DNA of 64,000 bases from Patescibacteria group bacterium. GTDB taxonomy: Bacteria > Patescibacteriota > Patescibacteriia > Patescibacteriales > UBA12465. Of the stretch, positions 8,451-51,821 are shown piece by piece. Location of the stretch: NCBI GenBank assembly GCA_050949525.1, contig JBMNFW010000001.1, forward strand, positions 271,890-335,889. Direction: 5' to 3'. The translations under genes and the position numbers were made by a program. The notes below the pieces were generated by a model. It made no database searches and was not told where the DNA came from. It saw only the letters and a program-made list of their open reading frames with translations. Numbering within the stretch: position 1 is the stretch's first letter; every line of letters begins with the position of its first letter.

Positions 8451-9518
8451 ATGAATAAAAAGGCTTTTTCTCTAGTTGAGCTTTTAGTAGTTATTGCTGT
8501 TATTGGGATTTTAGCTACCTTGGCCGTAGTGTCATTACAAGGAGCTAGAAAAGGAGCTCGTGATGCTAAGAGAATTGCTAATATTAAACAAATTCAAACT
8601 GCTTTAGAATTATATTACAATGATCAAGGGCAGTATCCAGAAAGTTTAAATTTTGGCCAAGGAAGCATTGAGAGTCCTAATGCTGTTTATATGGAGAAGA
8701 TTCCTAGTGCTCCAAGTCCAGCTGATGGGAATTGTGGTAGTAATAATGCTTATTTATATATTCCTATTGGTATTAATGGGCGAGCTTATCAAATATCGTT
8801 TTGCTTGGGATCTAAAGTTGGTCAATTAGATCCTGGACCACATTGCGCCAAGCCAGGAGGGATTATTCCTGGATCTTGTGGCGATGACTTTATTTGTGGT
8901 GATCCACTTTATGATAGTCGAGATGGTAATGTGTATAATACTGTTGCCATTGGTGATCAATGTTGGTTTCAGGAAAATCTAGCCTATTTGCCAATGGTTC
9001 ATAGTAATACCGAATATGTTGCTTCAAATACAGCAAAGTTACCTGGTTATGGTGTCTATGGTTATAACGGAAGTAATGTAGCCACCGCTAAATTAGAAAG
9101 CAATTATTCTACTTATGGAGTATTATATAATTGGTTTGCAGTTAATCAATCTGGAACTAATGCGATTTGTCCAGCAGGATGGCATGTGCCAACTGATGAT
9201 GAGTGGACAGAATTAACCAGGTATGTAATAGGTGATCCAACTTGCAACCCTAACACTGGATGTTCTCCGGCCGGAATAGCTTTAAAGACTGATGCTTGGG
9301 GTGGTGATAATAGCTCAGGTTTTACAGCTTTACTAGCCGGTTATCGGTATAATAGTGGTTTTGTGGATCTCGGAGCCGCCGCTTACTTTTGGTCATCTTC
9401 TGAGAATATTTCTAATCACTCTTGGTATCGTTTTTTGCAATCTGGTAGTGCTAAAGTATTTCGTGATTATAATGGTCAGATTCATGGTTATTCGGTTCGT
9501 TGCCTGAGAACTGAATAA
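8451..9518 (+). CDS. Type IV pilin-like protein fused to a Fibrobacter-succinogenes-major-paralogous (FISUMP) domain
   Basis: Prepilin N-terminus MNKKAFSLVELLVVIAVIGILA. C-terminal half carries GDQCWFQENL, YGVLYNW, CPAGWHVPTDDEW, GFTALLAGYR, YFWSSS and SVRCL, as in the TIGR02145-type domain. Confidence 0.8.
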   Translation: MNKKAFSLVELLVVIAVIGILATLAVVSLQGARKGARDAKRIANIKQIQTALELYYNDQGQYPESLNFGQGSIESPNAVYMEKIPSAPSPADGNCGSNNAYLYIPIGINGRAYQISFCLGSKVGQLDPGPHCAKPGGIIPGSCGDDFICGDPLYDSRDGNVYNTVAIGDQCWFQENLAYLPMVHSNTEYVASNTAKLPGYGVYGYNGSNVATAKLESNYSTYGVLYNWFAVNQSGTNAICPAGWHVPTDDEWTELTRYVIGDPTCNPNTGCSPAGIALKTDAWGGDNSSGFTALLAGYRYNSGFVDLGAAAYFWSSSENISNHSWYRFLQSGSAKVFRDYNGQIHGYSVRCLRTE

Positions 9519-11203: not shown

Positions 11204-11232
11204 TTGACAACAATAATAAATAAATATATAAT
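11204..11232 (+). promoter_or_regulatory. Consensus sigma-70 promoter of the infA-rpmJ-rpsM... operon
   Basis: TTGACA, 17 nt, TATAAT (both hexamers perfect). Confidence 0.7.
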
Positions 11233-11321: not shown

Positions 11322-11561
11322 ATGGATAAAGAAAATAATTCTAGCATTGATTCTAAAGACTTCTTAGAATTAAAGGGGGAGATAATAGAATTAATGCCGG
11401 CAGCTAATTTTAAGATAAAATTAGAAAATGGTCATGAAATATTAGGACATTTGTCTGGTAAAATGAGAATGAATCGAATTAGGCTTTTGCCAGGCGATAA
11501 GGTTAAAGTTCAAATGAGTCCTTATGATTTAAGTAAGGGTCGAATAGTTTTTCGTCTTTAA
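11322..11561 (+). CDS. infA: Translation initiation factor IF-1
   Basis: S1-like domain: [60 protein letters not shown]. An alternative GTG start lies at 11316. Confidence 0.93.
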
Positions 11562-11576
11562 TTTAATTAAGAAAAT

Positions 11577-11690
11577 ATGAAAGTTAGAGCTAGTGCTAAA
11601 AAAATTTGTAAAGATTGTAAGATAATTCGTCGTAAAGGGCGAGTTTATGTAATTTGTAAAAATCCTAGGCATAAGCAACGTCAGGGTTAG
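11577..11690 (+). CDS. rpmJ: 50S ribosomal protein L36
   Basis: Not in the ORF track (37 aa). My own translation is [37 protein letters not shown]. The infA-rpmJ-rpsM order is canonical. Confidence 0.93.
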
Positions 11691-11720
11691 TTTTTATTTA
11701 TTAAGATATAAAATAAAATT

Positions 11721-12116
11721 ATGGCAGTAAGAATTTCTGGAATAAATATTCCTAATGATAAAAGAGTCGAGGTGGCCCTAACCTATATCCATGGAATTGG
11801 ACTAAAGACTTCACAAGATATTCTAAAGAAGGCTAAAGTTAATCCTAATACTCGAGTTAAAGATTTAAAAGAAAGTGAAGCTAATACTTTACGTGATATT
11901 ATTGAAAAAAATTATGTAACTGAAGGGGATCTTCGTCGAGAAGTAGCTAGTAATATTAAACGATTGAAAGAAATAGGATCTCGAGTTGGGATTTGTCATT
12001 CTAAGCATTTACCTGTTCGAGGGCAACGAACTAAAACTAATAGTCGAACAGTGCGAGGAAATAAAAGAGCTACTATGGGATCTGGTAAGAGTAAAGCTGG
12101 AAGTCAAAAAACTTAA
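11721..12116 (+). CDS. rpsM: 30S ribosomal protein S13
   Basis: [32 protein letters not shown], typical S13. Confidence 0.95.
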
Positions 12117-12147
12117 TTTATATCATATATTAAATAATAAATAAAAT

Positions 12148-12738
12148 ATGAGTGAAGAAAAAAAGGAAAAAGATAAACAAGAAGAAGCGGATAAGGAAAC
12201 TAAGGCTTCCGAATTAGAAACATCAGAGGATTTATTTTCTGATGATGATGACTTGTTTTCAGTTGACTCAGAATCTAAAGATGAAACTGAGGATCTACCA
12301 GAAGAAATTAAACAAAAATTAGAAAAAAATAAACAGGCTCGAAGTAAAAAGAAGTTATCTAAGAAAAGAAAGAAAAAGGAGAATATTAGAGTTAAATCTG
12401 GTCATGCCTATATTAAAGCTACTTATAACAATACCGTGATATCTTTAAGTGATAAGTCTGGTAATGTTATATCTTGGGCTAGTGCTGGAATGGCTGGATT
12501 TAAAGGGGCCAAGAAGGCTACTCCTTATGCGGCTCAAATTATTGCTAAAATTGCAGTTTTAAAAGCTAAAGAAGAGTATGGTTTAGAAGAAGTTAAAGTT
12601 TTTGTAGCTGGGGTTGGAACTGGTCGAGAAGCTGCAATTCGAGCTTTAAATGCTAATGGTTTGGAAATAACAATAATTAAGGATGTGACTTCAGTACCTC
12701 ATAATGGTTGTCGTCCTAAAAAAGCTCGTCGAGTTTAA
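12148..12738 (+). CDS. rpsK: 30S ribosomal protein S11 with a ~65-aa acidic/basic low-complexity N-terminal extension
   Basis: The core [46 protein letters not shown] is S11. The first ~65 aa are E/D/K-rich. Confidence 0.93.
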
Positions 12739-12763
12739 TTAATCAAAAATAACTAATATAAAT

Positions 12764-13399
12764 ATGGGAAAAAATTTAGATGCTAAATGTAAACAATGTC
12801 GCCGAGCTGGGGAGAAGTTATTCCTAAAAGGGGAGCGATGCTTTTCACCTAAGTGTGCTATGGTTAAAAGAAATTATCCTCCAGGATTTCATGGTCCTAA
12901 AGGTAAAAAAAGATTAACTGATTATGGTCTACAATTAAATGAAAAGCAAAAGGCTCGAAAGATGTATGGTTTAAGAGAAGGGCAATTTAAGCTTATATTT
13001 AAAAAAGAACAAAGTCGTGGTGGTGATGTTGGGGCTAATTTTCTTAGAGCTTTAGAGATGCGTTTAGATAATATTATTTATCGAGCTGGATTTGCTCCGT
13101 CTCGGCAACAAGCTCGACAAATTGTTAGTCATGGTCATGTCACTATTGATGATAAAAAGATGAATATTCCTTCTTATCAAGTTAAGATTGGTCAAGTTGT
13201 TAAAATAAAGAAAAGTTCTGCTAAGAATAAATATTTTAGGGATTTACCGGAAAGATTAAAAACTTTAGCTCCTGAGCAAAAAAGTTGGCTAGCGGTTGAT
13301 GTGAAGGATTTATCAGCTAAAGTTTTACACGAACCTCGAACTGAAGACCTGCCTCAGAATATTAAAACCCACATGATTATTGAGTTTTATTCAAAATAA
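12764..13399 (+). CDS. rpsD: 30S ribosomal protein S4
   Basis: N-terminal CKQCRR...CFSPKC zinc-ribbon type S4 with an S4 RNA-binding domain (RLDNIIYRAGFAPSRQQARQIVSHGHV). Confidence 0.95.
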   Translation: MGKNLDAKCKQCRRAGEKLFLKGERCFSPKCAMVKRNYPPGFHGPKGKKRLTDYGLQLNEKQKARKMYGLREGQFKLIFKKEQSRGGDVGANFLRALEMRLDNIIYRAGFAPSRQQARQIVSHGHVTIDDKKMNIPSYQVKIGQVVKIKKSSAKNKYFRDLPERLKTLAPEQKSWLAVDVKDLSAKVLHEPRTEDLPQNIKTHMIIEFYSK

Positions 13400-13421: not shown

Positions 13422-14234
13422 ATGGAAAAAATAGCTTTAGCCAAAAAAATTGATTTTAAACCTGGGGAGACTGCTAATGATGGAGTAGTCACCATTGAAC
13501 CTCTATTTCCTGGTTACGGCAATACCATTGGTAATTCCTTACGTCGAGTATTATTATCTTCTTTGCCAGGTGCTGCAGTAGTAGGAGTGAAAATAAAGGG
13601 AGTTAAACATGAATTTATGGCTGTTAAGGGGGTCAAAGAAGATGCTATTGATATTATTTTAAATTTAAAGCAATTAAGATTTAAAATTTTAGGAGAAGTA
13701 GAAGAGCCAATTAAATTAGAATTAAATGTACAGGGCAAAAAAACAGTTAGTGCTAAAGATATTAAGAAGAATAGTTTAGTTGAAATTGCTAATCCTGATT
13801 TAGTTTTAGCCACTATTACTGATAATACTGCTAGTTTAGGTATGGATATTTATGTTCTGCCTGGTATGGGTTATTCTATGGTTGATGCTGATAGAAAATC
13901 TAGTAAAGAGGTTGACTATATTGAGTTTGACTCAATTTTTTCTCCAATTATGGGAGTTAATTACAAGGTAGAGAACGTTCGGGTTGGAAAAATGACTAAC
14001 TGGGATAAATTAATTTTAGAAGTAAAAACTGATGGAACTATTTCAGTGGAAGAAGCTTTTAATCAATCAGTTAAGATTTTAGTTGATCAATTTAAAGCTT
14101 TGATTACTTTAGAAGAGAAAGAAGAAAAGAAGGAAAAAAAGGAGGAAAAGAAGGAAGTGAAGAAGGATGATAAGGAAAAGAAAGAAGAAAAGAAAAAGGC
14201 TAGTACTAAAACAACTGCTAAGAAAAGTAAATAA
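13422..14234 (+). CDS. rpoA: DNA-directed RNA polymerase alpha subunit: N-terminal domain only, with a K/E-rich tail in place of the alpha-CTD
   Basis: IEPLFPGYGNTIGNSLRRVLLSSLPGAAV is typical of the alpha-NTD. After ~aa 228 the sequence is EEKEEKKEKKEEKKEVKKDDKEKKEEKKKASTKTTAKKSK. Total length is 270 aa. Confidence 0.9.
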   Translation: MEKIALAKKIDFKPGETANDGVVTIEPLFPGYGNTIGNSLRRVLLSSLPGAAVVGVKIKGVKHEFMAVKGVKEDAIDIILNLKQLRFKILGEVEEPIKLELNVQGKKTVSAKDIKKNSLVEIANPDLVLATITDNTASLGMDIYVLPGMGYSMVDADRKSSKEVDYIEFDSIFSPIMGVNYKVENVRVGKMTNWDKLILEVKTDGTISVEEAFNQSVKILVDQFKALITLEEKEEKKEKKEEKKEVKKDDKEKKEEKKKASTKTTAKKSK

Positions 14235-14251
14235 TAAATTTAAATAATAAT

Positions 14252-14602
14252 ATGAGACATAAAAATAAAGGTAAAATTTTAGGTAGAACTAAAGAGGCGC
14301 GAGAAATGATGTTAAGGAATTTGCTTTCTAGTATTATTATCTATGAAAAGGTAGAGACTACTAAAGCTAAAGCTAAAGCTGTTAAACCATTATTAGAAAA
14401 AGCAATTACTACTGCTAAAAAGGGTGATCTAGCTTCTCGTCGAGAATTGTTAAAAATAATTTTAGAACCTAAGGCGGTTAATAAGTCTTTTGAGGTTTTA
14501 GCTGAAAGATATAAAGATAGGGCTGGTGGTTATAGTCGAATTATAAAAATTGGAAATCGAGTTGGTGATGGGGCTGAAATGGTTCAAATTGAGTTAGTAT
14601 AA
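14252..14602 (+). CDS. rplQ: 50S ribosomal protein L17
   Basis: MRHKNKGKILGRTKEAREMMLRNL; follows rpoA. Confidence 0.95.
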   Translation: MRHKNKGKILGRTKEAREMMLRNLLSSIIIYEKVETTKAKAKAVKPLLEKAITTAKKGDLASRRELLKIILEPKAVNKSFEVLAERYKDRAGGYSRIIKIGNRVGDGAEMVQIELV

Positions 14603-14625: not shown

Positions 14626-14973
14626 ATGGAAAGAAAGATACATAAAATTGATGCTAGTGGGCAAGCGGTGGGACGAATTGCTACTCAAATTGCTACTATT
14701 TTACGAGGAAAACATAAACCTGAATTTCAACCTCATATGGATTTAGGTGATATAGTTGAGGTTATCAATGTTGATCAACTTAAATTTAGTGGTAAGAAAT
14801 TAGAACAAAAAAAATATTTTAGTCACACTGGTCATATTGGAGGTTTAAAGGAAAAGAAAATGAAGGATGTTTTCTCTCAAGATCCAGGAGAGGTTTTGCG
14901 ACGAGCGGTCCGTGAAATGTTAGCTCCGACCAGATTAAGAAAAGATATTATGAAAAGATTGATTATTAGATAA
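14626..14973 (+). CDS. rplM: 50S ribosomal protein L13 (short, 115 aa)
   Basis: GRIATQIATILRGKHKPEFQPHMDLGD and HTGHIGGLKE. Both termini are trimmed relative to E. coli L13 as I recall it. Confidence 0.9.
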   Translation: MERKIHKIDASGQAVGRIATQIATILRGKHKPEFQPHMDLGDIVEVINVDQLKFSGKKLEQKKYFSHTGHIGGLKEKKMKDVFSQDPGEVLRRAVREMLAPTRLRKDIMKRLIIR

Positions 14974-14986
14974 TATTATTAAATTT

Positions 14987-15466
14987 ATGAGTGAAGATAA
15001 AAAAACAAAAAAAGCTACTACTAAAAAAACTACTGTTAAAAAAGTAGCTCCAAAAGAAAAAGTTAGTATTAAGGCTAAGAAATATATCAAAGCTATTGGA
15101 AGAAGAAAAACTTCAGTGGCTCAGGTTAGGATGTATGAAAAAGGTAAGGGTGAAATTATTATTAATGATAAATCAGCTTTAGATTATTTTAAAAAAGAGG
15201 AAACAGTAAATATTTTAACTCAACCTTTAAAATTAGTGTCTAAACTAGATGATTTTGATTTTTCAATTATTGTTAAGGGTGGAGGATATTTAGGGCAAGT
15301 AGATGCTATTAAACATGGCATTGCTCGAGCTTTAGTAAAGTATGATCCTGAATTAAAAACTATTTTAAAAACCGATGGACATTTAACTCGAGATCCTAGA
15401 AAAAAAGAGAGAAAGAAACCAGGATTAAAGAAAGCTCGTAAAGCTTCACAGTGGTCTAAGAGATAA
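14987..15466 (+). CDS. rpsI: 30S ribosomal protein S9 with a K-rich N-terminal extension
   Basis: AIGRRKTSVAQVRMYEKGKGEIIIN and the C-terminal KKARKASQWSKR. Confidence 0.95.
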   Translation: MSEDKKTKKATTKKTTVKKVAPKEKVSIKAKKYIKAIGRRKTSVAQVRMYEKGKGEIIINDKSALDYFKKEETVNILTQPLKLVSKLDDFDFSIIVKGGGYLGQVDAIKHGIARALVKYDPELKTILKTDGHLTRDPRKKERKKPGLKKARKASQWSKR

Positions 15467-15490: not shown

Positions 15491-15520
15491 AAATCCCCTC
15501 ATTGTAGGGGATTTTATGTT
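15491..15520 (+). terminator. Intrinsic terminator after rpsI
   Basis: AATCCCCT/AGGGGATT stem, 6-nt loop, T-rich tail. Confidence 0.75.
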
Positions 15521-15540: not shown

Positions 15541-15613
15541 TATAGCTCCAAAAATAAGATAAAATGGAGCTATGATTTGACATATCTCCAAAAATAAGAT
15601 AAAATGGAGATAT
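15541..15613. repeat. Two tandem 32-nt hairpin-capable repeats, 40-bp period, upstream of and over the fic promoter
   Basis: Copy 1 is ATAGCTCCA-aaaataagataaaa-TGGAGCTAT (15542-15573). Copy 2 is ATATCTCCA-aaaataagataaaa-TGGAGATAT (15582-15613). The loops are identical. The single arm difference (G->T) is mirrored in the other arm (C->A). Confidence 0.85.
15577..15605 (+). promoter_or_regulatory. Sigma-70-type promoter of fic, embedded in repeat copy 2
   Basis: TTGACA, 17 nt, TAAAAT. The ATG lies 13 nt after the -10 box, so the leader is very short. Confidence 0.55.
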
Positions 15614-15618
15614 AAAAT

Positions 15619-16761
15619 ATGAAAAATTTTATTGCTGGAAAATATAAAAAACAATTTCGAGATAAGGAATTCGAATATCAGAGTTTTTCACCAACATTCA
15701 TAAATCGTGATTTTAATTGGTGTGATAAAAAAATTGACGTTTTATTGGAGCGAGCGACTCGATTATTGGGAGAGCTTAATGCTTATTCGTATTTAGTTCC
15801 TGATGTTAATTTTTTTATTCAAATGAATGTTGTTAGGGAGGCTACTAAGTCTAGTATGATTGAGGGTACTCGTACAGATATTGATGAAGTGATATTACCA
15901 AGAGAGGAGATTGATCCAAGAAAAAGGGATGATTGGGAAGAGGTGCAAAACTATATAAAAGCACTTAATTTTGCTATTTCTGAATTAAAAGTTTTACCAC
16001 TTAGTATGAGATTAATTTGTGAAACTCATAAAAAACTATTATTAGGTGTAAGAGGTGAGTATAAAAATCCTGGAGAAATAAGACGAAGTCAAAATTGGAT
16101 TGGCGGATCTTCTTTATCTGATGCTTTTTTTATTCCACCTAGTTATGAAGAGCTTCCAGATTTACTCGCCGATGTTGAAAAATTTTGGCATAATAAAAGT
16201 TTAAATTTACCTTTGATAATAAAAATAGGTATTATTCATTATCAGTTTGAAACTATTCACCCCTTTTTGGACGGTAACGGTCGCATTGGTAGACTTTTAA
16301 TTGCATTACAATTAGTTGAATCAAAAATTTTAACTAAACCTACTCTCTATCTATCAGTTTTTTTTGAGAAAAATAGAATTTCTTATTATGATTCTTTGAA
16401 TATGGTAAGAAAAAGTAATGATTTGGAGCAATGGATTAAATTTTTTTTGAATGGCATTATTGATACAGCTGATGATAGTATAAATACTTTTAAAAAGATT
16501 ATTAATTTACGTTTAGAATATGAACAAAAGATACTTAGCTTAGGTGTTCGAGCTAAAAATGCTCAGGAATTAATTAGATATATGTTTTCAAAACCAATTG
16601 TTAATTCAAAATTAGTTCAAGAGAATATTAAAATTAGCTCTAATACTTCTAATAGACTTTTAAAATCTCTTATTGATTTAAAGATTGTGGAAGAGATTAC
16701 TGGGTATTCTCGAAATAGATTTTATGTTTTAAGAGATTATTTGAATTTATTTAAGAAATAA
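15619..16761 (+). CDS. fic: Fic-family protein (AMPylase-type) with an internal inhibitory motif and a C-terminal winged-helix-like domain
   Basis: Active-site motif HPFLDGNGRIGR. The upstream SSMIEG matches the (S/T)xxxE(G/N) autoinhibition motif of class II Fic proteins. The C-terminus SNTSNRLLKSLIDLKIVEEITGYSRNRFYV is wHTH-like. Confidence 0.85.
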   Translation: MKNFIAGKYKKQFRDKEFEYQSFSPTFINRDFNWCDKKIDVLLERATRLLGELNAYSYLVPDVNFFIQMNVVREATKSSMIEGTRTDIDEVILPREEIDPRKRDDWEEVQNYIKALNFAISELKVLPLSMRLICETHKKLLLGVRGEYKNPGEIRRSQNWIGGSSLSDAFFIPPSYEELPDLLADVEKFWHNKSLNLPLIIKIGIIHYQFETIHPFLDGNGRIGRLLIALQLVESKILTKPTLYLSVFFEKNRISYYDSLNMVRKSNDLEQWIKFFLNGIIDTADDSINTFKKIINLRLEYEQKILSLGVRAKNAQELIRYMFSKPIVNSKLVQENIKISSNTSNRLLKSLIDLKIVEEITGYSRNRFYVLRDYLNLFKK

Positions 16762-22200: not shown

Positions 22201-23253
22201 ATGAATCAGAGAAAAGCTTTTACTTTAATTGAATTAATAATAGTGATATCTATTATTGTTATTTTATTTAGTTTATCTTTATTTTTTGTTTCTCGATCTC
22301 GAAGTCAAGGAAAAGATTTAAAAGTGCTATCTAATATCAGCCAGTTTCAAATAGCTTTAGATAATTATAATATTAGTGAGGGGTCTTATCCAGAATTTTT
22401 AGATTTAGATAATTTTGCTTTAGTTGGTCACGAAGCTCAACTTCTTTTTTCTTTTATCCCTAAACATATTAATAGTTCTGACTATCGATATAATGAAGTT
22501 GATAATACTTATGAGTTAGAGTTTTATTTAGAAAATGCGGTTGATAATTTAAAAGCGGGGGCTAAGTGTGCTATTCCGGGTAAAATTTTGGAGGGAGCTT
22601 GTTGTTTTCATCCGGTGCTAGATGGAGAAGGTAATTCTTATCCGGTGGTTAGAATTGGTGAGCAGTGTTGGATGGCTAAGAGTTTGAATTTAGGGGAAAT
22701 GATGTGCTCATCTTATAGTGGTAGCTCTACTTGCTCTGAGAGTCCTAGTGATAATGGGGTTATAGAAAAATATTGTTATTTTAATTTAGAGGAAAATTGT
22801 AATGTTTTTGGTGGTCTTTATCGATGGAATGAGGCGATGAATTATACTGATAATCCACAAGGGATTTGCCCTGATGGTTGGCGGATTGCTAATGATCAGG
22901 ATTGGCATGTTTTAGAGTCTTATTTAAAAAATAGTGGTCAAGATTGTGATCCGATCCGAGCTGGTAGTTTTTCTTGTTTTCCGGCTGGTAATAGATTAAA
23001 AATAGATCTTCCGGAGTCTAATCCTTATTGGTCAGGTAGCAATACTTCTGGTTTTTCGGCTTATCCTGGCGGTATTTTTGATGGTTATAATTTTTCTGAT
23101 CAAAGTTTGACAGCCTTTTGGTCACCTGGCTATTATTTTGGTGATATCATACCATATTATCGACTTTTGAAATATAATGATGACCGAGTTTATCGTTGTA
23201 AGTTTCCCGATCCTTATGCTTTAGCTATTCGTTGTATAAAAGATTATGAATAA
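22201..23253 (+). CDS. Type IV pilin-like protein fused to a FISUMP domain (paralog 2)
   Basis: MNQRKAFTLIELIIVISIIVILF prepilin N-terminus. C-terminal GEQCWMAKSL, GGLYRWNEA, CPDGWRIANDQDW, GFSAYPGG and IRCIKD. Confidence 0.8.
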   Translation: MNQRKAFTLIELIIVISIIVILFSLSLFFVSRSRSQGKDLKVLSNISQFQIALDNYNISEGSYPEFLDLDNFALVGHEAQLLFSFIPKHINSSDYRYNEVDNTYELEFYLENAVDNLKAGAKCAIPGKILEGACCFHPVLDGEGNSYPVVRIGEQCWMAKSLNLGEMMCSSYSGSSTCSESPSDNGVIEKYCYFNLEENCNVFGGLYRWNEAMNYTDNPQGICPDGWRIANDQDWHVLESYLKNSGQDCDPIRAGSFSCFPAGNRLKIDLPESNPYWSGSNTSGFSAYPGGIFDGYNFSDQSLTAFWSPGYYFGDIIPYYRLLKYNDDRVYRCKFPDPYALAIRCIKDYE

Positions 23254-24355
23254 TCGTAAAATAAAAAATAGAACCGCTTTTACCTTAATTGAACTTATGG
23301 TGGTTATTTTTTTAATTGCCTTAATTGGATCCTTAGTTAGTGTGTATTTTTCTCAATATCGAAGGGTTCTTCGTGATGGGAAAAGATTGATGGATGTTTC
23401 TGAAATTCAATTAGCTTTGGAAAATTATCGTATGTTTGAAGGTTATTATCCGATAGAATTGAATCCCGGTGAAGCATTAGTTGGTCCATCGAGCGGTCGA
23501 ATTTATTTAGATCAAGTTCCAGAAAATCCAATATATCGTAATTCTTTTTGTTCCTCACCTGATTATAATTACACTTATGATGCTGAAGAAGATGAATATC
23601 GTATTTCTTTTTGTTTGGAAGGGCGGTTTGAGAATTATAATCCAGGATCTAAATGTGCTTTTAGTGGTGAGGTATTTGAGGGGGCTTGTGTTTCTTGTCC
23701 ATCATTTATTTCTGATATTGATGGTAATAATTATTCAACAGTGGTTATTGGAAATCAATGTTGGATGGCGGAAAATTTAAAAGTTACTAAATATAATGAT
23801 GGTAGTGATATTCTGTATCCTGGTGTCGATATGGATCTTTGGGTTAATAATACTGAAGGGGCTTATGCTTGTTGGTGGAATGATATGAGTAATTGCAGTA
23901 CCAATAGAGGTGCTTTGTATAATTGGTATGCTATTAGTAATCCTAAAGGTTTATGTCCGGAAGGTTGGCATGTCGCTACTCATTATGAGTTTATTCAATT
24001 AGAAAATAATGTTTGCGTATCTAGTGGTAATAGTGTGGAATATTGTCAGGAGATATTTCCTTTTGATTATAGTACTAATGGTTGGCTGGGAACTGATGAG
24101 GGTCGTCGATTAAAGGCCGTTACTTGGAGTAATGGAACTGATGATCTTGGTTTTTCTTTAGTTCCTACTGGTTATCGTCATGATAATGGTAATTTCTATT
24201 CTAATGCTACTGATTGGGCTTTTGTATCAACGGCTACTGAAATAGGGGATAATAATTGGCGTCGACTTTTTAGCCCTGATGAAGATCGAATTCAGCGAGT
24301 TAAAAACGCACCTAAGACTAGAGGAAATTCAGTTCGATGTGTTCAAGATTATTAG
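23246..24355 (+). CDS. Type IV pilin-like protein fused to a FISUMP domain (paralog 3)
   Basis: RTAFTLIELMVVIFLIALIG N-terminus. GNQCWMAENL, GALYNWYA, CPEGWHVATHYEF, GFSLVPTGYR and SVRCVQD. It overlaps the upstream paralog by 8 nt. Confidence 0.8.
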   Translation: MNNRKIKNRTAFTLIELMVVIFLIALIGSLVSVYFSQYRRVLRDGKRLMDVSEIQLALENYRMFEGYYPIELNPGEALVGPSSGRIYLDQVPENPIYRNSFCSSPDYNYTYDAEEDEYRISFCLEGRFENYNPGSKCAFSGEVFEGACVSCPSFISDIDGNNYSTVVIGNQCWMAENLKVTKYNDGSDILYPGVDMDLWVNNTEGAYACWWNDMSNCSTNRGALYNWYAISNPKGLCPEGWHVATHYEFIQLENNVCVSSGNSVEYCQEIFPFDYSTNGWLGTDEGRRLKAVTWSNGTDDLGFSLVPTGYRHDNGNFYSNATDWAFVSTATEIGDNNWRRLFSPDEDRIQRVKNAPKTRGNSVRCVQDY

Positions 24356-26675: not shown

Positions 26676-27398
26676 ATGAAATTTATATTAGGAAAAAAAA
26701 TTAATATGACTCAGGTTTGGGATGAAAAAGGACAGGCTGTAGCAGTAACCAGAGTTCAGGCTGGACCTTGTATAGTGACTCAGGTTAAGGATGAAAAAAA
26801 TGATGGTTATCAAGCAGTTCAGATAGCTTATGATCGTAAAAAGGTTAAGAATGTTTCTAAACCAGTTCGGGGTCATTTAAAAAAGGCCGGTTTTTTATCA
26901 GAAGATGCTCGATTTTTACGTGAGTTTCGTACTTCAGCTGATTTGAAACCTGGTGATGTTATCGATGTTTCTACTTTTAATAAAGGGGATATTGTTGATG
27001 TTCAAAGTGTTTCTAAGGGGAAAGGTTTTCAGGGTGTGGTTAAACGTTATGGATTTGCTGGATCTCAAAAAACTCATGGAAATAAAGATCAGCTTCGAGC
27101 TACTGGTTCTATTGGAGCTTTAGGTCCATCTCGAGTTTTTAAGGGAAAGAAAATGCCTGGTCGAATGGGGGGAGATACTGTTACTATTAAAAATTTAGAA
27201 ATAATTGAAGTTGATTTAGAAAATAATATTTTATTCATCAAGGGAGCTGTTCCTGGTTATAACGGGATACTTTTAAAGATTAAAGGTGTTGGAGATTTGG
27301 TAGTGAATAATAAGAAGGAAGAAAAGGAAGAAAAAGAAGATAAAAAGGAAGAAAAGGAGGTAGAAGCTCCAGTTGAAGAAGATAAAAAAGAGGAATAA
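26676..27398 (+). CDS. rplC: 50S ribosomal protein L3 with a K/E-rich C-terminal tail
   Basis: GKKINMTQVWDEKGQAVAVTRVQAGPC and GKGFQGVVKRYGF. Tail: NNKKEEKEEKEDKKEEKEVEAPVEEDKKEE. Confidence 0.95.
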   Translation: MKFILGKKINMTQVWDEKGQAVAVTRVQAGPCIVTQVKDEKNDGYQAVQIAYDRKKVKNVSKPVRGHLKKAGFLSEDARFLREFRTSADLKPGDVIDVSTFNKGDIVDVQSVSKGKGFQGVVKRYGFAGSQKTHGNKDQLRATGSIGALGPSRVFKGKKMPGRMGGDTVTIKNLEIIEVDLENNILFIKGAVPGYNGILLKIKGVGDLVVNNKKEEKEEKEDKKEEKEVEAPVEEDKKEE

Positions 27399-29720: not shown

Positions 29721-30233
29721 ATGGAAGTTAAAGCTAGTTTAAAACATTTAAGAATTTCTCCTCGCAAAGTTCGCTTGGTGGCCAATTTGATTCGAGGTTT
29801 GGAAACCGAAGCTGCTATTAGTCAGTTAAAGTTTTTGAATAAAAAAGCGGCTCGACCAGTTTTAAAATTACTAGAATCAGCTATTGCTAATGCTACTAAT
29901 AATTATAATTTAGATAAAAAGAATTTAAGAATAAAAGAGATTCGAGTTGAGGATGATAAAACTTTGAGAAGATGGTTACCTCGAGCTCATGGTCGAGCTA
30001 CTATTCTTCGAAAAAGAATGAGCCATGTTTATATCGTGTTGAGTGAAATTGTTTCTAGTGGTAAGAAGGAGGCTAAGAAGGTGGTAGTTGAGGAACCAGT
30101 TAAATTAGAGGAATTAGGTAAAAAGACTAAGGCGGGAGCTAAAGAGGATGTTAAAACTAAGACTAAGGAAACAAAAAGAAAGGCTTCATCTAAAGGTTTT
30201 GCTAATAAGGTTTTTCAACGAAAGGCCGGATAA
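29721..30233 (+). CDS. rplV: 50S ribosomal protein L22 with a K-rich C-terminal extension
   Basis: LRISPRKVRLVANLIRG...RAHGRATILRKRMSHV. Confidence 0.95.
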   Translation: MEVKASLKHLRISPRKVRLVANLIRGLETEAAISQLKFLNKKAARPVLKLLESAIANATNNYNLDKKNLRIKEIRVEDDKTLRRWLPRAHGRATILRKRMSHVYIVLSEIVSSGKKEAKKVVVEEPVKLEELGKKTKAGAKEDVKTKTKETKRKASSKGFANKVFQRKAG

Positions 30234-34833: not shown

Positions 34834-35439
34834 ATGTCAGAGCAAAAAAAAGATGAAATTAAAAAAGTAGCCTCAAGTTCTAAGGATGCTTCTGGAGCTA
34901 AACCTAAGAGATCTTTTTCTTCTCGAAAGCGTTTTGCTGATCGACCAAAAGAAGAATTTGAACAACGAATTTTAGATATTGCTCGAGTTACTCGAGTTAT
35001 GAAGGGAGGAAAGAGGATGAGTTTTAGAGCTTGTGTAGTTATTGGTGATAAGAAAGGACGAGTGGCTATTGCTTTAGGTAAAGGAGCTGATGTTACTATT
35101 GCAGTTAATAAGGCAGTCAATAAAGCTAAGAAGAATATCATAGTAGTTCCGATTGTAAAAGATACTATTCCTCATGAAATTTATCAAAAGTATGGTTCAG
35201 CTAAAATTTTATTAAAACCAGCTAATCAAGGACGGGGAGTTATTGCGGGTGGAGTAGTTCGAGTTATTATGGATTTGGCTGGGGTTAAAAATGTTACTAG
35301 TAAGATTTTAGGTACTAATAATAAAGTTAATAATGCTAAATGTGTAATGTTGGCTTTTAAAAATTTGAAAACTAAGAAGAGTCCTAAAACTAAGCCAGTT
35401 ACTAAGGAAAAGAAACTTGAAGTAAAAAATAAAAAATAA
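34834..35439 (+). CDS. rpsE: 30S ribosomal protein S5 (N- and C-terminal K-rich extensions)
   Basis: RVTRVMKGGKRMSFRACVVIGDKKGRVAIALGKG. Confidence 0.95.
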   Translation: MSEQKKDEIKKVASSSKDASGAKPKRSFSSRKRFADRPKEEFEQRILDIARVTRVMKGGKRMSFRACVVIGDKKGRVAIALGKGADVTIAVNKAVNKAKKNIIVVPIVKDTIPHEIYQKYGSAKILLKPANQGRGVIAGGVVRVIMDLAGVKNVTSKILGTNNKVNNAKCVMLAFKNLKTKKSPKTKPVTKEKKLEVKNKK

Positions 35440-44159: not shown

Positions 44160-45497
44160 ATGTCAAAAAAGAAAGTGGTAGAAAAAAAGACTAAGTCTTC
44201 AACTAAAGCGCTTAGTAAAAAGAAGAGCTCAGTAACTACAAAAAAAGCGGTGGTAAAAAAACCAGTAACTAAAAAGAAGGTTAGTGTGACTAAGAAAAAA
44301 GTTGTTACTAAAAAGCCTGTGGTTAAGAAGAAGGTCAGCACTACTAAGAAGCCGGTGACTAAGAAGACTAAAACTCCTGTTAAGAAAAGTCCTACTCCCA
44401 AAAAACTTAATCCAGCTCCTGAGGAGAGCCAGATTTTAAAAGTTTTAGAAAAGGGGAGATTACGAGGTTTTTTAACTGAAACTGAGGTTTTGCATCTTTT
44501 TCCTTTTGTTGAGGATTATATTTTTGATTATGAAGTTTTTTTAGGTCGCTTGACCAGTAATGGTATTAAATTGGTTGAAGATAGTGGTAATATTTTAGGT
44601 GATAAGACGGCTGATTTAGAGCAGGATAATTTTTTGGATAAATCAGTTTTAGATATTACTAATTTAAATTTTGATTCTATTCAACTTTATTTAAAAGAAA
44701 TTGGTAAAATTCCATTATTAACAGCTGAGGAGGAAGTTGAATTAGCTAAAAGAAAGGATCGAGGTGATAAAGAGGCGGAAAGAAAGATGATAGTTTCTAA
44801 TTTAAAGTTAGTAGTATCTATTGCTAAGAAATTTTCTGGAGTAAAAACTTTGAGTCTATTAGATTTAATTCAGGAGGGTAATATTGGTCTTTTTCGGGCG
44901 GTAGAAAAATTTGAGTATCAGAAGGGTTATAAGTTTTCAACTTATGCTACTTGGTGGATTAGACAAGCCATTACTCGAGCGCTAGCTGATCAATCTCGAA
45001 CTATTCGTATTCCAGTTCATATGGTAGAAACTATTAATCGTTACCGACAAGCTCGAAGATTTTTAGTTCAAGAATTGGGACGTGAACCTTTAGCTGAAGA
45101 AATAGCGGCTGAGATGGGGGAGGAGATTGAAAAGGTGAGATATATAATTAAAATTTCCCAAGAAACTATTTCTTTAGAAACCACTATTGGTGATGATAAT
45201 GACAACTCTACCCTTGAAGATTTTATTAAAGATGTAAAAAATGAAACTCCTGATCGTATTGCGGCTTTACAATTATTAAAAGATTATGTGCAGGAAGTGA
45301 TGGTAAATCTTTCACCTCGAGAGCAGAAGATCTTAGAAATGCGTTTTGGTTTAGTTGATGGCGTAGCTCATACTTTAGAGGAGGTAGGAAAAGAGTTTGA
45401 GGTAACTAGGGAACGTATTCGTCAAATTGAGGCTAAGGCTTTAGAAAAGATCAGAAAGATGCAAAATAAAAGTTTGGAAAAATTAAAAGATTTTTAA
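44160..45497 (+). CDS. rpoD: RNA polymerase sigma factor RpoD (sigma-70) with a lysine-rich repetitive N-terminus
   Basis: Regions 2-4 are present: [40 protein letters not shown] and [20 protein letters not shown]. The first ~85 aa are KK(P)V(T/S)KK repeats. Confidence 0.93.
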
Positions 45498-51305: not shown

Positions 51306-51821
51306 ATGCCACAAATAAGAAAAGGTTTTGAACAAGAGCAATTAGAAGATCTTCCTATTTCTCCAGAAGAGGAGGTGGTTAAGGTTGAAAGTCAGGAGCC
51401 TCGTATAGAAAAGGAAAGTATTTTAGAAAAAGAATCTGAGTTTAAAAAAGAAGAAAAAGAAGAAGAGGATAAGTTAGAGAAAAAAATTGATCCCCCGAGT
51501 GCTAGTCCAGTAACCGTTATTTTAAGTCCTGAGGAAGAACGAGAAAAAAAAATTGATAAAATCTTAGCCGAAGGTTTAGAAGATGTTTTTTTAGGTATGA
51601 CTCCAAAACAGCAAAAAAAGTTTAAAACTGAAGGAGAAAAAACTGTTAAAAAAATTAATGTGCTTTTAAGAGATGCTAAGGTTAAAATTAAAAAAATTGT
51701 TGATTTAATTAGAAGATGGCTGAGAAATATTCCTAAGGTTAATAAACATTTTTTAGAGCAGGAAGCTAAAATTAAAGCTGACCGAATTGTTAATTTAAAA
51801 AAAGAAGAGAAAAATAAATAA
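51306..51821 (+). CDS. K/E-rich hypothetical protein (171 aa), acidic disordered N-half and basic helical C-half
   Basis: It starts 3 nt after the ferredoxin stop and ends 5 nt before the ATPase. The antisense ORF at 51392-51850 is the complement of its K/E codons. Confidence 0.55.
   Translation: MPQIRKGFEQEQLEDLPISPEEEVVKVESQEPRIEKESILEKESEFKKEEKEEEDKLEKKIDPPSASPVTVILSPEEEREKKIDKILAEGLEDVFLGMTPKQQKKFKTEGEKTVKKINVLLRDAKVKIKKIVDLIRRWLRNIPKVNKHFLEQEAKIKADRIVNLKKEEKNK

What the first reader, a model, noticed from the sequence alone, without database searches (positions are those of the whole stretch)
13422..14234. RNA polymerase alpha subunit lacks the C-terminal domain
Seen in the sequence: the 270-aa RpoA has a normal N-terminal (assembly) domain up to ...SVKILVDQFKALITLEE. 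It then ends in about 40 residues of K/E low complexity (EKEEKKEKKEEKKEVKKDDKEKKEEKKKASTKTTAKKSK). rplQ follows 17 nt later, so no room is left for a CTD.

Established knowledge: the alpha-CTD (about 80 aa, helix-hairpin-helix) binds UP elements and is the contact point for many activators.

Inference: this organism either dispenses with CTD-dependent regulation, encodes the CTD separately, or uses the charged tail as a nonspecific DNA or protein contact.
Basis: partly seen in the sequence, partly recalled or inferred. Interest (0 to 1): 0.55.

Follow-up and report, generated by a model that had tools for sequence, protein, structure and literature searches.

The report
RNA polymerase alpha without its C-terminal domain
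This uncultured ultra-small bacterium (Falkowbacteria, Patescibacteria) and hundreds of its relatives make an RNA polymerase alpha subunit whose DNA- and activator-binding C-terminal domain is replaced by a short charged tail, usually ending in a lysine patch or an AT-hook; as far as I could find, nobody has described this.

Summary
rpoA (13422-14234, +) encodes 270 aa: a complete alpha N-terminal domain, then 40 charged residues, then tandem TAA TAA stops. rplQ starts 17 nt later.

No alpha-CTD (PF03118) is detectable in the protein, in any frame of the 64-kb window, or in 80 related loci. It is not an artefact. The identical protein lies on at least 23 independently assembled contigs, and all 120 closest homologues and 80 species-level relatives are 244-295 aa and lack a CTD.

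The trait is shared by Falkowbacteria, Uhrbacteria and some Parcubacteria. Doudnabacteria, Saccharibacteria and other Patescibacteria keep the CTD in the same operon slot. At least one further lineage seems to have lost it independently.

New here: the tails are not random low complexity.
- In 79 species the last 12 residues average +5.1 net charge and the preceding linker -6.9. None of 2000 within-tail shuffles reached this.
- The pattern holds from 27% to 59% GC.
- 14 of 79 species, and 24 of 97 more distant proteins, end in a canonical or near-canonical AT-hook (KKRGRPKK).

Best reading: the CTD was replaced by a minimal tethered, low-specificity DNA contact. This is inferred, not shown. 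I found no UP-like AT enrichment at the conserved operon promoter and no prior report.

The parts
13422..14234 (+). rpoA coding sequence: 270 codons plus stop (CTD-less RNA polymerase alpha subunit)
   Evidence: ORF list. Pfam PF01193 + PF01000 only. NCBIfam rpoA equivalogs TIGR02027 (261.6 bits, cutoff 227.8) and NF003519 (278.5 bits, cutoff 277). The identical protein lies on at least 23 contigs.
13422..14111 (+). Alpha N-terminal (dimerisation and beta/beta' assembly) domain, residues 1-230
   Evidence: phmmer against PDB alpha subunits, E 2.5e-55, aligned to their N-terminal domains. AlphaFold2 block-mean pLDDT is above 87 for most of the domain (lower for residues 1-10 and 151-170; mean 85.7 for the whole protein). 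Foldseek against solved RNAP alpha N-terminal domains gives target-normalised TM of 0.82-0.93 for chains that comprise only the N-terminal domain, over ~221-225 columns. R41 and R42 of the G-N-x-L-R-R-x-L-L-S-S motif are invariant in 88 homologues.
14112..14189 (+). Alternating K/E linker, residues 231-256 (12 K, 11 E, 2 D; net -1)
   Evidence: Read from the sequence. AlphaFold2 extends the last N-terminal-domain helix (residues 209-260) through it, with pLDDT falling 78 > 69 > 54. In relatives the equivalent segment is acidic, mean net -6.9. In CTD-bearing relatives the interdomain linker is also acidic, mean -2.1 and negative in 80 of 110.
14190..14231 (+). Terminal basic patch KKKASTKTTAKKSK, residues 257-270 (net +7, no acidic residue)
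   Evidence: Read from the sequence. The last 10 residues have pLDDT below 50. In 75 of 79 related species the last 12 residues carry a net charge of +3 or more, and 0 of 2000 within-tail shuffles reach the observed mean. In 14 of 79 the position holds an AT-hook-like core, KKRGRPKK in 13 of them.
14232..14237 (+). Tandem stop codons TAA TAA
   Evidence: Read from the sequence. They make read-through into a downstream domain implausible.
14252..14602 (+). rplQ (ribosomal protein L17), starting 17 nt after the rpoA stop
   Evidence: Pfam PF01196, E 2.8e-32. rplQ follows rpoA directly, with gaps from 1 to about 240 nt (most under 60 nt), in 79 of 80 related species loci; the 80th (L034) has a broken rpoA call.
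11204..11232 (+). Candidate operon promoter, perfect TTGACA-17-TATAAT, 89 nt upstream of infA
   Evidence: Consensus scan. A 12/12 match lies upstream of infA in 62 of 64 related species. This is a prediction only; no transcript data.
11322..13399 (+). Upstream genes of the operon: infA, rpmJ, rpsM (11721-12116), rpsK (12148-12738), rpsD (12764-13399)
   Evidence: ORFs. Pfam on S11 and S4. Called genes with Pfam on identical contigs.
14626..15466 (+). Downstream genes of the operon: rplM (14626-14973) and rpsI (14987-15466)
   Evidence: ORFs. Pfam L13 and S9 on identical contigs.
15491..15514 (+). Terminator-like hairpin followed by a T run, at the end of the operon
   Evidence: Consensus scan.

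Best explanation
SHOWN: The gene is the organism's ordinary rpoA, in the ordinary infA-rpmJ-rpsM-rpsK-rpsD-rpoA-rplQ operon. It encodes an alpha subunit with an intact N-terminal assembly domain and no C-terminal domain. This is the normal state of a large Patescibacteria lineage: Falkowbacteria, Uhrbacteria and some Parcubacteria. Other Patescibacteria keep the CTD. In place of the CTD there is a 16-65-residue tail with no aromatic or hydrophobic core and a conserved polarity: an acidic or mixed-charge linker, then a basic C-terminal patch. In roughly one fifth to one quarter of the lineages sampled the patch is a canonical or near-canonical AT-hook (KKRGRPKK) 3-4 residues from the end.

INFERRED: The RNA polymerase of these organisms cannot read UP elements or be recruited by activators that dock on the alpha-CTD. 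The acidic part of the tail descends from the ancestral interdomain linker. The basic end is a selected, minimal replacement for the CTD's DNA contact. Two copies per polymerase, each on a flexible (in this organism perhaps helical E/K) spacer, would touch the backbone or AT-rich minor groove of DNA upstream of the -35 element. That would add non-specific affinity rather than sequence-specific activation. Promoter strength would then rest on sigma-core promoter contacts, which fits the perfect-consensus promoter of this operon.
For: CTD absent:
- Pfam, NCBIfam and PDB alignments cover only the N-terminal domain.
- The CTD HMM finds nothing in 546 kb of six-frame translation, while it detects 93 of the 150 representative proteins as CTD-bearing.
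- AlphaFold2 shows no globular domain after residue 230.

Real and clade-wide:
- The identical protein lies on at least 23 contigs.
- 120 of 120 best homologues carry only PF01000 + PF01193 and are 244-291 aa.
- 79 of 80 GTDB species loci encode a 244-295-aa RpoA followed by rplQ; the 80th has a broken gene call.
- An Uhrbacteria locus at 58.9% GC shows the same arrangement.

CTD-bearing orthologues in the same slot: P0130 and P0216; Doudnabacteria and Saccharibacteria.

Tail under constraint:
- The last 12 residues average +5.1 (75 of 79 at +3 or more), the rest -6.9, with 0 of 2000 shuffles as extreme. Aromatic residues make up 0.1%. Locus GC ranges from 27% to 51%.
- 74 of 94 more distant CTD-less proteins have the basic end, and 24 of the 97 CTD-less proteins carry an AT-hook-like core.
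- RGRP needs residues that are rare in these tails (R 1.3%, G 2.2%, P 3.2%).
- Pfam AT_hook aligns at exactly that spot in 6 of 8 proteins tested.
- Hook and lysine-patch forms alternate between nearest neighbours.

Linker origin: CTD-bearing relatives have an acidic linker, median 18 aa, net -2.1.

Precedent: Myxococcus CarD combines an RNAP-binding domain, an acidic segment and RGRP AT-hooks (PMC4374960). In one species the hooks are replaced by a histone-H1-like lysine-rich domain, and the two can be exchanged without loss of function (PMC2919716).

Consistent context: the full-length CRP/FNR family is absent from the CPR clade (PMC12531629). A perfect consensus promoter upstream of infA is found in 62 of 64 species.
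Against: - There is no experimental or structural evidence that the tail touches DNA.
- The 30 nt upstream of the -35 element at the conserved operon promoter are no more AT-rich than the loci as a whole (0.641 vs 0.625, p=0.21). There is thus no UP-like signature where one might expect it.
- K/E-rich extensions also decorate L3, S11, S9, S5, L22 and sigma-70 in this window. Part of the tail may simply reflect a genome-wide habit.
- A subgroup of CTD-less proteins (240-244 aa) has only a short acidic tail with no basic end, so the basic patch is not indispensable.
- The window's own tail has no RGRP core.
- Pfam AT_hook scores (9.9-13.1 bits) are below the 17.4-bit cutoff.
- Only about 64 kb of this genome was available, so a CTD encoded elsewhere is not strictly excluded.
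Confidence: 0.55

Rival explanations
1. The tail is functionless filler: a leftover, expanded interdomain linker made of the lysine/glutamate-rich low complexity that this genome adds to many proteins. The polymerase simply has no upstream contact at all.
For: - K/E-rich extensions occur on L3, S11, S9, S5, L22 and an unknown ORF in the same window, and there is a lysine-rich sigma-70 N-terminus.
- There is no UP-like AT enrichment at the operon promoter.
- Some CTD-less relatives carry only a short acidic tail.
- Tail length and sequence vary widely.
Against: - The acidic-then-basic polarity is kept in 75 of 79 species and is never reproduced by shuffling each tail's own residues.
- It persists in a 58.9% GC Uhrbacteria locus, where AT-driven lysine codons cannot be the cause.
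- The RGRP core uses residues that are otherwise rare in the tails and always sits 3-4 residues from the end.
- A lysine tail replaced the CTD in a second, separate lineage.
Confidence: 0.2
2. The tail is functional but does not contact promoter DNA. The acidic block might act as a nucleic-acid mimic, like the acidic tail of the Gram-positive delta subunit. Alternatively, the block-charged tail might bind RNA or another protein, or drive polymerase clustering.
For: - There is strong charge segregation, -6.9 then +5.1.
- An acidic-only subgroup exists.
- There is no AT-rich upstream signature.
- The behaviour of the delta subunit's acidic tail is cited from my own knowledge; it was not tested here.
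Against: - The AT-hook is, in every characterised case, a DNA minor-groove binder (Aravind & Landsman 1998, as cited in PMC2919716).
- Its free interchange with plain lysine patches among close relatives mirrors the DNA-binding CarD case (PMC2919716).
- The tail emerges from the point on alpha where the linker to the DNA-binding CTD normally emerges.
Confidence: 0.17
3. The CTD exists but is encoded elsewhere: as a separate small gene, fused to another protein, or on a second full-length rpoA paralogue.
For: Only 64 kb of the genome could be examined. NCBI does annotate an 84-aa 'alpha CTD-containing protein' next to a 220-aa RpoA in one Patescibacteria lineage.
Against: - There is no CTD signal in any frame of the window, of the 80 related loci, or of loci L081-L086 and L088. 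The CTD-bearing locus L087 was detected as a positive control.
- All CTD-bearing relatives inspected sit in the same operon slot, so they are orthologues.
- The annotated split is an artefact. The junction codon is TGA in a lineage whose neighbouring genes carry 1-4 in-frame TGAs.
- An untethered CTD would lose the property that makes it useful (inference).
Confidence: 0.06
4. Sequencing, assembly or gene-calling artefact: a frameshift or premature stop near 14100-14230 hides a CTD.
For: None was found. The A-rich K/E-coding run is the kind of sequence where indels occur.
Against: - Tandem TAA TAA is followed after 14 nt by the rplQ start, so there is no coding room.
- The identical protein occurs in at least 23 contigs from independent assemblies.
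- The same architecture occurs in 79 of 80 species loci.
- No CTD is found in any frame.
Confidence: 0.01

Closest known systems
Canonical bacterial RNA polymerase alpha subunit (E. coli RpoA, 329 aa; B. subtilis RpoA, PDB 6WVJ)
   Same: Same gene, same operon position and same N-terminal domain: 45% identity to B. subtilis in the Foldseek structural alignment, phmmer E 2.5e-55 against its sequence, and target-normalised TM of 0.82-0.93 against N-terminal-domain-only chains of solved structures. The acidic segment after the N-terminal domain aligns with the B. subtilis interdomain linker.
   Different: It lacks the ~70-80-aa helix-hairpin-helix CTD (PF03118) that binds UP elements and activators. 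It ends instead in a 40-aa charged tail.
Engineered E. coli alpha truncations (alpha-235 / alpha-256; Igarashi & Ishihama 1991, cited from my own knowledge)
   Same: An N-terminal domain without a CTD. In E. coli such subunits still assemble core enzyme and support factor-independent transcription. That shows a CTD-less alpha is biochemically viable.
   Different: Those are laboratory constructs that cannot replace the wild-type gene. Here the truncation is the natural, sole and clade-wide form, and it carries a conserved basic end.
Myxococcus xanthus CarD and its Anaeromyxobacter orthologue (HMGA-like or histone-H1-like C-terminal domains)
   Same: An RNA-polymerase-bound module followed by an intrinsically unfolded acidic segment, then basic RGRP AT-hooks. 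In a relative the hooks are replaced by a lysine-rich H1-like region that is functionally interchangeable (PMC4374960, PMC2919716). The same two alternatives, AT-hook or lysine patch, alternate among these RpoA tails.
   Different: CarD is an accessory factor that binds the beta subunit, has four hooks in ~140 residues, and is restricted to myxobacteria. Here a single hook or patch in 16-65 residues is fused to a core subunit. There is no sequence homology. PMC2919716 described CarD and its Stigmatella orthologue as the only known prokaryotic proteins with HMGA-like domains.
Archaeal Rpo3 (subunit D) and eukaryotic Rpb3/AC40
   Same: Homologues of the alpha N-terminal domain that naturally lack any alpha-CTD. 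Those polymerases rely on separate factors for upstream DNA contacts.
   Different: The window protein is clearly bacterial. It scores 261-278 bits on bacterial rpoA equivalogs against 23.9 bits (cutoff 153) on the archaeal subunit D model. It forms part of a bacterial ribosomal-protein operon.
Eukaryotic HMGA proteins / AT-hook motif (PF02178)
   Same: Relatives carry the textbook core R-G-R-P flanked by K/R, next to an acidic stretch, in a disordered context.
   Different: There is one hook rather than three. The acidic block precedes rather than follows the hook. The window's own tail has no G-R-P core, only a lysine/threonine/serine/alanine patch.

Membership tests
Bacterial RNA polymerase alpha subunit (RpoA; TIGR02027 / NF003519) | N-terminal dimerisation/assembly domain (PF01193 interrupted by the PF01000 insert) | tested here: met
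   PF01000 E 2e-28 and PF01193 E 2.2e-22. AlphaFold2 model matched to solved alpha N-terminal domains, target-normalised TM 0.82-0.93 for N-terminal-domain-only chains.
Bacterial RNA polymerase alpha subunit (RpoA; TIGR02027 / NF003519) | Whole-protein score above the curated equivalog cutoff | tested here: met
   TIGR02027 scores 261.6 bits against a cutoff of 227.8. NF003519 scores 278.5 against 277, only just above. The other six NF0035xx sub-models fall below their cutoffs.
Bacterial RNA polymerase alpha subunit (RpoA; TIGR02027 / NF003519) | Position in the rpsM-rpsK-rpsD-rpoA-rplQ gene cluster | tested here: met
   The same order is found in the related species loci and in the more distant lineages inspected.
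Bacterial RNA polymerase alpha subunit (RpoA; TIGR02027 / NF003519) | C-terminal helix-hairpin-helix domain (PF03118) joined by a flexible linker | tested here: not met
   There is no PF03118 hit at E<=1. The equivalog alignments stop at model position ~252 of 320. The custom CTD HMM is negative. No fold is predicted after residue 230.
AT-hook motif (PF02178 / HMGA-type) | G-R-P core (usually R-G-R-P) flanked by K/R, in the window's own protein | tested here: not met
   The window tail ends KKKASTKTTAKKSK and has no G-R-P. There is no AT_hook hit.
AT-hook motif (PF02178 / HMGA-type) | G-R-P core flanked by K/R, in orthologous tails of relatives | tested here: inconclusive
   The motif is present as KKRGRPKK in 13 of 79 species, with one KKRGRSKK variant, and as an AT-hook-like core in 24 of 97 distant CTD-less proteins. 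Pfam AT_hook aligns there in 6 of 8 proteins tested, but at 9.9-13.1 bits, below the 17.4-bit cutoff. DNA binding was not tested.
HMGA-like domain as in CarD | Acidic region plus several (3-4) AT-hook repeats in an unfolded domain of ~100-140 aa | tested here: not met
   The acidic block and disorder are present, but there is a single hook or patch in 16-65 aa. The resemblance is one of design, not of family membership.
E/K-rich single alpha-helix (SAH / ER-K motif) | Long run of alternating E and K/R predicted or shown to form a stable isolated helix | tested here: inconclusive
   Residues 231-256 alternate E and K. AlphaFold2 draws one helix over residues 209-260, but block-mean pLDDT falls from 78 to 54 across residues 231-260. 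Most relatives have E/A/V/P-rich linkers that do not fit the motif.
Archaeal/eukaryotic Rpo3-Rpb3 type subunit | Score above the cutoff on the subunit D model | tested here: not met
   NF001988 scores 23.9 bits against a cutoff of 153, and the match is local only.

The most novel reading that the evidence does not exclude
A major radiation of bacteria (Falkowbacteria/Uhrbacteria-type Patescibacteria and at least one separate lineage) has repeatedly swapped the alpha-CTD for a eukaryote-style HMGA/H1-like mini-module built into the core polymerase. The alpha-CTD is normally treated as part of every bacterial RNA polymerase. The replacement is an acidic spacer plus one AT-hook or lysine patch. 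These organisms would then have no UP-element reading and no class-I-type activation at all. Two tethered minor-groove hooks per enzyme would supply generic upstream DNA affinity. That would be a third solution, besides the bacterial CTD and the archaeal/eukaryotic factor-based one, to the problem of anchoring a polymerase upstream of its promoter.
Probability: 0.35. Interest if true: 0.8.

Novelty: new variant of a known kind. Interest (0 to 1): 0.62.

Why it matters
The alpha-CTD is the textbook docking point for UP elements and for a large share of bacterial activators (CRP-type class I activation, and many others). In model bacteria it cannot be deleted. A large natural clade that lives without it is a ready-made experiment on what the CTD is really needed for.

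It predicts that transcription control in these ultra-small, host-dependent bacteria works almost entirely through sigma-promoter contacts and repressors. That fits their small regulator repertoire and the perfect-consensus promoter seen here.

The AT-hook and lysine-patch ends suggest a simple, testable replacement: a peptide-sized DNA anchor on a core subunit. This would extend the prokaryotic occurrence of HMGA-like logic beyond myxobacterial CarD.

There are practical consequences too:
- The length and domain content of RpoA could serve as a lineage marker within Patescibacteria.
- Annotation pipelines barely pass these proteins (278.5 bits against a 277-bit cutoff).
- Promoter-design efforts for genetic tools in Patescibacteria should not assume that UP elements work.

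Tried and rejected
1. Frameshift or hidden CTD. Nothing was found. The best window hit (E 0.008) lies inside the alanyl-tRNA synthetase ORF, and weak hits in related loci fall upstream of rpoA at about locus position 1200-1650, which by position should be ribosomal protein S13 (not verified).

2. Split rpoA. A cluster from 'Paceibacterota' holds a 220-aa N-terminal-domain protein and an adjacent 84-aa CTD protein. The junction codon is TGA, and neighbouring genes carry 1-4 in-frame TGAs with almost no TGG. This is a UGA-recoding lineage annotated with the standard code, not a real split.

3. UP-element signature. I aligned 62 orthologous perfect-consensus promoters upstream of infA. AT content upstream of the -35 element does not exceed the locus mean. 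This gives no support for sequence-specific upstream reading.

4. Pfam AT_hook. It aligns at the right place but below threshold, so it cannot count as a formal family hit.

5. Single or multiple losses. A neighbour-joining tree of N-terminal domains interleaves CTD-bearing and CTD-less sequences and is too poorly resolved to count events. Nearest-neighbour analysis and synteny give one good candidate for an independent loss, P0154 against P0216.

6. Taxon names. Three cluster look-ups gave few names. Names came mainly from record titles and hit tables.

7. Database search for free-standing CTD proteins. Not run. Only the best 120 hits are listed and cannot be filtered by length, so a negative result would have meant little.

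8. Literature. Nine full-text searches found no description of CTD-less RpoA in Patescibacteria or elsewhere. One search retrieved the CarD papers. Subscription-only literature was not searchable.
Full report
**1. The observation**

The ORF at 13422-14234 (+) encodes 270 residues. The DNA ends ...AGT AAA TAA TAA, and the rplQ ATG is at 14252, 17 nt after the first stop.

- Pfam finds the two families that make up the alpha N-terminal domain: PF01193 (residues 26-224) interrupted by PF01000 (residues 56-174). It finds no PF03118, even at E<=1.
- NCBIfam's rpoA equivalogs match, but only over model positions 1-252 of 320 (NF003519: 278.5 bits, cutoff 277) and 2-231 of 298 (TIGR02027: 261.6 bits, cutoff 227.8).
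- Against solved structures the protein aligns with the N-terminal domains of alpha subunits (B. subtilis 6WVJ, E 2.5e-55; E. coli chain residues 22-248). The first part of the charged tail aligns with the B. subtilis interdomain linker.
- An AlphaFold2 model built on 88 homologues (mean pLDDT 85.7) gives a confident N-terminal domain. A long helix (residues 209-260) runs out into the K/E stretch with falling confidence, and the last 10 residues are disordered.
- Foldseek matches only the N-terminal domain of RNAP alpha chains, with target-normalised TM of 0.82-0.93 for N-terminal-domain-only chains over ~220-225 columns.

**2. Not an artefact**

- The E. coli CTD used as a probe, and a 72-position CTD HMM built here from 77 sequences, find nothing in any frame of the window or of 80 related loci, 546 kb in all. 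The HMM does detect 93 of the 150 representative proteins as CTD-bearing.
- The exact 270-aa protein is carried by at least 23 contigs from independent ENA, JGI and Logan assemblies, always with the same neighbours.
- The tandem stops and the immediately following rplQ leave no coding room.

**3. The organism and how far the trait extends**

The window is about 31% GC. All 120 best homologues (57-100% identity) are 244-291 aa and carry only PF01000 + PF01193. The named ones are Falkowbacteria or 'Patescibacteria group'.

A scan of one genome per GTDB species returned 80 loci from distinct species, mostly labelled Falkowbacteria or Patescibacteria. In 79 of them rpoA is 244-295 aa and rplQ follows directly, usually within 60 nt and at most about 240 nt; the 80th has a broken gene call.

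An exhaustive search of 1.84 billion representatives showed how the best 150 clusters at 50% identity divide:
- 93 have a CTD.
- About 45 lack it and end in lysine-rich or AT-hook tails.
- The rest are fragments or chimeras.

A profile search with diverse CTD-less N-terminal domains added names:
- CTD-less: Candidatus Uhrbacteria (P0305), 'Candidatus Parcubacteria' (P0341), and a 'Parcubacteria group' protein (P0129).
- CTD-bearing: Doudnabacteria (P0309, P0373), Saccharibacteria (P0365) and several 'Patescibacteria group' proteins.

CTD-bearing relatives sit in the same operon slot, so they are orthologues rather than second copies.

Pooling 382 usable sequences gives 252 CTD-less proteins with low-complexity tails and 110 CTD-bearing ones. 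The nearest neighbour of a CTD-less protein is CTD-less in 246 of 251 cases. The exceptions include P0154 (259 aa, lysine tail, locus L088, 53% GC) and P0216 (320 aa, with CTD). Their N-terminal domains are 62% identical, and they share a synteny that differs from the Falkowbacteria arrangement: a SecY-linked operon, a long L17, and LigT downstream. That is a good candidate for an independent replacement. A neighbour-joining tree was too poorly resolved to count events.

**4. The tail is structured in charge, not random**

In 79 species:
- The last 12 residues have a mean net charge of +5.1, and 75 of 79 are at +3 or more.
- The rest of the tail averages -6.9.
- Shuffling each tail's own residues never reproduced this (0 of 2000; shuffle mean -0.38).
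- Aromatic residues are 0.1% of the tails.
- The loci span 27-51% GC.

An Uhrbacteria locus at 58.9% GC has the same design...AEDDDGEKKKAKKAAKKKK. AT-biased codon drift therefore cannot explain the lysine end.

Fourteen of the 79 species end in an AT-hook-like core 3-4 residues from the C-terminus, KKRGRPKK in 13 of them and KKRGRSKK in one. Among 97 more distant CTD-less proteins, 74 of the 94 with a tail of at least 14 residues have the basic end, and 24 carry an AT-hook-like core. R, G and P are rare in these tails (1.3%, 2.2%, 3.2%), so the motif is not a compositional accident. Pfam's AT_hook model aligns at exactly that place in 6 of 8 proteins, although below its cutoff.

Hook and lysine-patch forms alternate between nearest neighbours. 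A minority (240-244 aa) has only a short acidic tail.

In CTD-bearing relatives the interdomain linker is already acidic: median 18 aa, mean net -2.1, negative in 80 of 110. The acidic block of the tails is therefore most simply an expanded remnant of that linker, with the basic end standing where the CTD was.

The window's own tail is the mixed-charge variant. Residues 231-256 alternate E and K (net -1) and are possibly helical. Residues 257-270, KKKASTKTTAKKSK, carry +7.

**5. How it most likely works**

Shown: the enzyme has no alpha-CTD, and the tail's charge polarity is conserved.

From established knowledge:
- The CTD binds the minor groove of A/T-rich UP elements and is the target of class I activators.
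- E. coli alpha truncated at residue 235 still assembles and transcribes without factors (my own knowledge of Igarashi & Ishihama 1991).
- AT-hooks bind the minor groove of AT-rich DNA.

Inferred: these polymerases have given up CTD-mediated regulation. They keep, at the same exit point on alpha, a peptide-sized, low-specificity DNA anchor on an acidic or helical spacer.

The closest precedent is Myxococcus CarD. It has an RNAP-binding domain followed by an unfolded acidic segment and RGRP AT-hooks (PMC4374960). In Anaeromyxobacter the hook domain is replaced by a histone-H1-like lysine-rich domain, and the two can be exchanged without loss of function (PMC2919716).

Supporting context:
- The full-length CRP/FNR family is reported absent from the CPR clade (PMC12531629).
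- The operon containing rpoA is driven by a perfect TTGACA-17-TATAAT promoter (11204-11232). A 12/12 match is present upstream of infA in 62 of 64 related species, as if promoter strength were placed entirely in the sigma-contacted elements.

**6. What speaks against the DNA-anchor idea**

- The 30 nt upstream of the -35 element at those 62 promoters are no more AT-rich than the loci overall (0.641 vs 0.625, p=0.21). There is no UP-like signature.
- K/E-rich extensions are common in this window, on L3, S11, S9, S5 and L22. Sigma-70 carries an ~85-aa lysine-rich N-terminus. Some of the tail may be a genome-wide habit.
- The acidic-only subgroup shows that the basic end can be dispensed with.
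- Nothing here tests binding.
- A CTD encoded elsewhere in the genome cannot be strictly excluded from 64 kb. The only 'split' rpoA I encountered is an artefact of an in-frame TGA in a UGA-recoding lineage.

**7. Comparison and novelty**

The protein is a member of the RpoA family by its N-terminal domain, its equivalog scores and its synteny, but it fails the family's CTD feature. It works like an engineered alpha-235 truncation with an added CarD/HMGA-like anchor, and it is homologous to neither CarD nor HMGA. It is not an archaeal-type subunit D (23.9 bits against a cutoff of 153).

Nine full-text searches found no description of CTD-less RpoA in Patescibacteria or any other bacteria. A recent review of Patescibacteria biology does not mention RNA polymerase at all. 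The proteins themselves are in public databases, annotated simply as 'DNA-directed RNA polymerase subunit alpha'.

I rate it a new variant of a known kind.

**8. Verdict**

| Claim | Confidence |
|---|---|
| The CTD is truly absent and the trait is clade-wide | about 0.95 |
| The tail's basic end is under selection | about 0.75 |
| The tail is a DNA anchor that replaces the CTD's DNA contact | about 0.5 |
| The combined explanation | 0.55 |

Interest is 0.62. A transcription specialist would be surprised by a large natural clade without the alpha-CTD. The AT-hook variants make the question of what replaces it directly testable.

Noticed in passing
window 11204-11232 (+); loci L001-L080 upstream of infA: The infA-rpmJ-rpsM-rpsK-rpsD-rpoA-rplQ-rplM-rpsI operon has a perfect consensus sigma-70 promoter (TTGACA, 17 nt, TATAAT) 89 nt before infA. 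A 12/12 match is conserved upstream of infA in 62 of 64 related species, often abutting the end of the preceding gene. The window holds three perfect matches (11204, 46850, 49701) against 0.3 expected from shuffles.
   Followed up: partly
window 44160-44415 (start of the sigma-70 gene 44160-45497): The housekeeping sigma factor (regions 1.2, 2, 3 and 4 found by Pfam) begins with about 85 residues of K/T/V/P-rich, histone-H1-like sequence ([40 protein letters not shown]...). In this organism both alpha and sigma therefore carry lysine-rich appendages.
   Followed up: no
window 26676-27398 (L3 C-terminus), 12148-12400 (S11 N-terminus), 14987-15080 (S9 N-terminus), 34834-35439 (S5), 29721-30233 (L22), 51306-51821: Several ribosomal proteins and one unknown ORF carry K/E- or K-rich low-complexity extensions. 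This is relevant as a compositional background for the RpoA tail.
   Followed up: partly
window 8451-9518, 22201-23253, 23246-24355: There are three paralogous pilin-like proteins, each with an N-terminal methylation motif plus a Fib_succ_major domain. Two of them are inserted between fusA and tuf in the otherwise conserved str operon.
   Followed up: no
window 15546-15569 and 15586-15609: A 24-nt direct repeat (ctccaaaaataagataaaatggag, itself with inverted ends) flanks the -35 hexamer and covers the spacer and -10 of the near-consensus promoter (15577-15605) of the Fic-domain gene (15619-16761). It could be an operator.
   Followed up: no
loci L089 (4110-4772) and L090 (1342-2271): In a 29% GC lineage labelled 'Candidatus Paceibacterota', NCBI annotates rpoA as a 220-aa protein plus an adjacent 84-aa 'alpha CTD-containing protein' (HRV32416.1 / HRV32417.1). 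The junction codon is TGA, and neighbouring genes hold 1-4 in-frame TGAs with almost no TGG. The lineage evidently reads UGA as sense, and the split is an annotation artefact.
   Followed up: yes
locus L088 (3501-4280) versus protein P0216: In a second, unrelated-looking Patescibacteria lineage (53% GC, SecY-linked operon, long L17), one species has a lysine tail without an acidic linker (P0154, 259 aa). A relative whose N-terminal domain is 62% identical keeps the CTD (P0216, 320 aa), in the same synteny. This is probably an independent CTD replacement.
   Followed up: partly
proteins P0219 and P0247: Two CTD-bearing RpoA proteins carry an extra basic tail after the CTD (...KKEEKKNSKKTKSKNKD...AAKRRGRKPSR). 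They could be intermediates, or parallel additions of a basic end.
   Followed up: no
window 51827-54349 and 54374-57571: A type IV secretion coupling-protein-like ATPase (TrwB/TraG domains) lies next to a 1065-aa protein with no Pfam match.
   Followed up: no
loci L001-L080 (record titles): Many species-representative records of these Patescibacteria (accessions CAY.../CAZ...) are titled 'uncultured Gammaproteobacteria bacterium', and one 'Planctomycetota'. These are evidently mislabelled bins.
   Followed up: no
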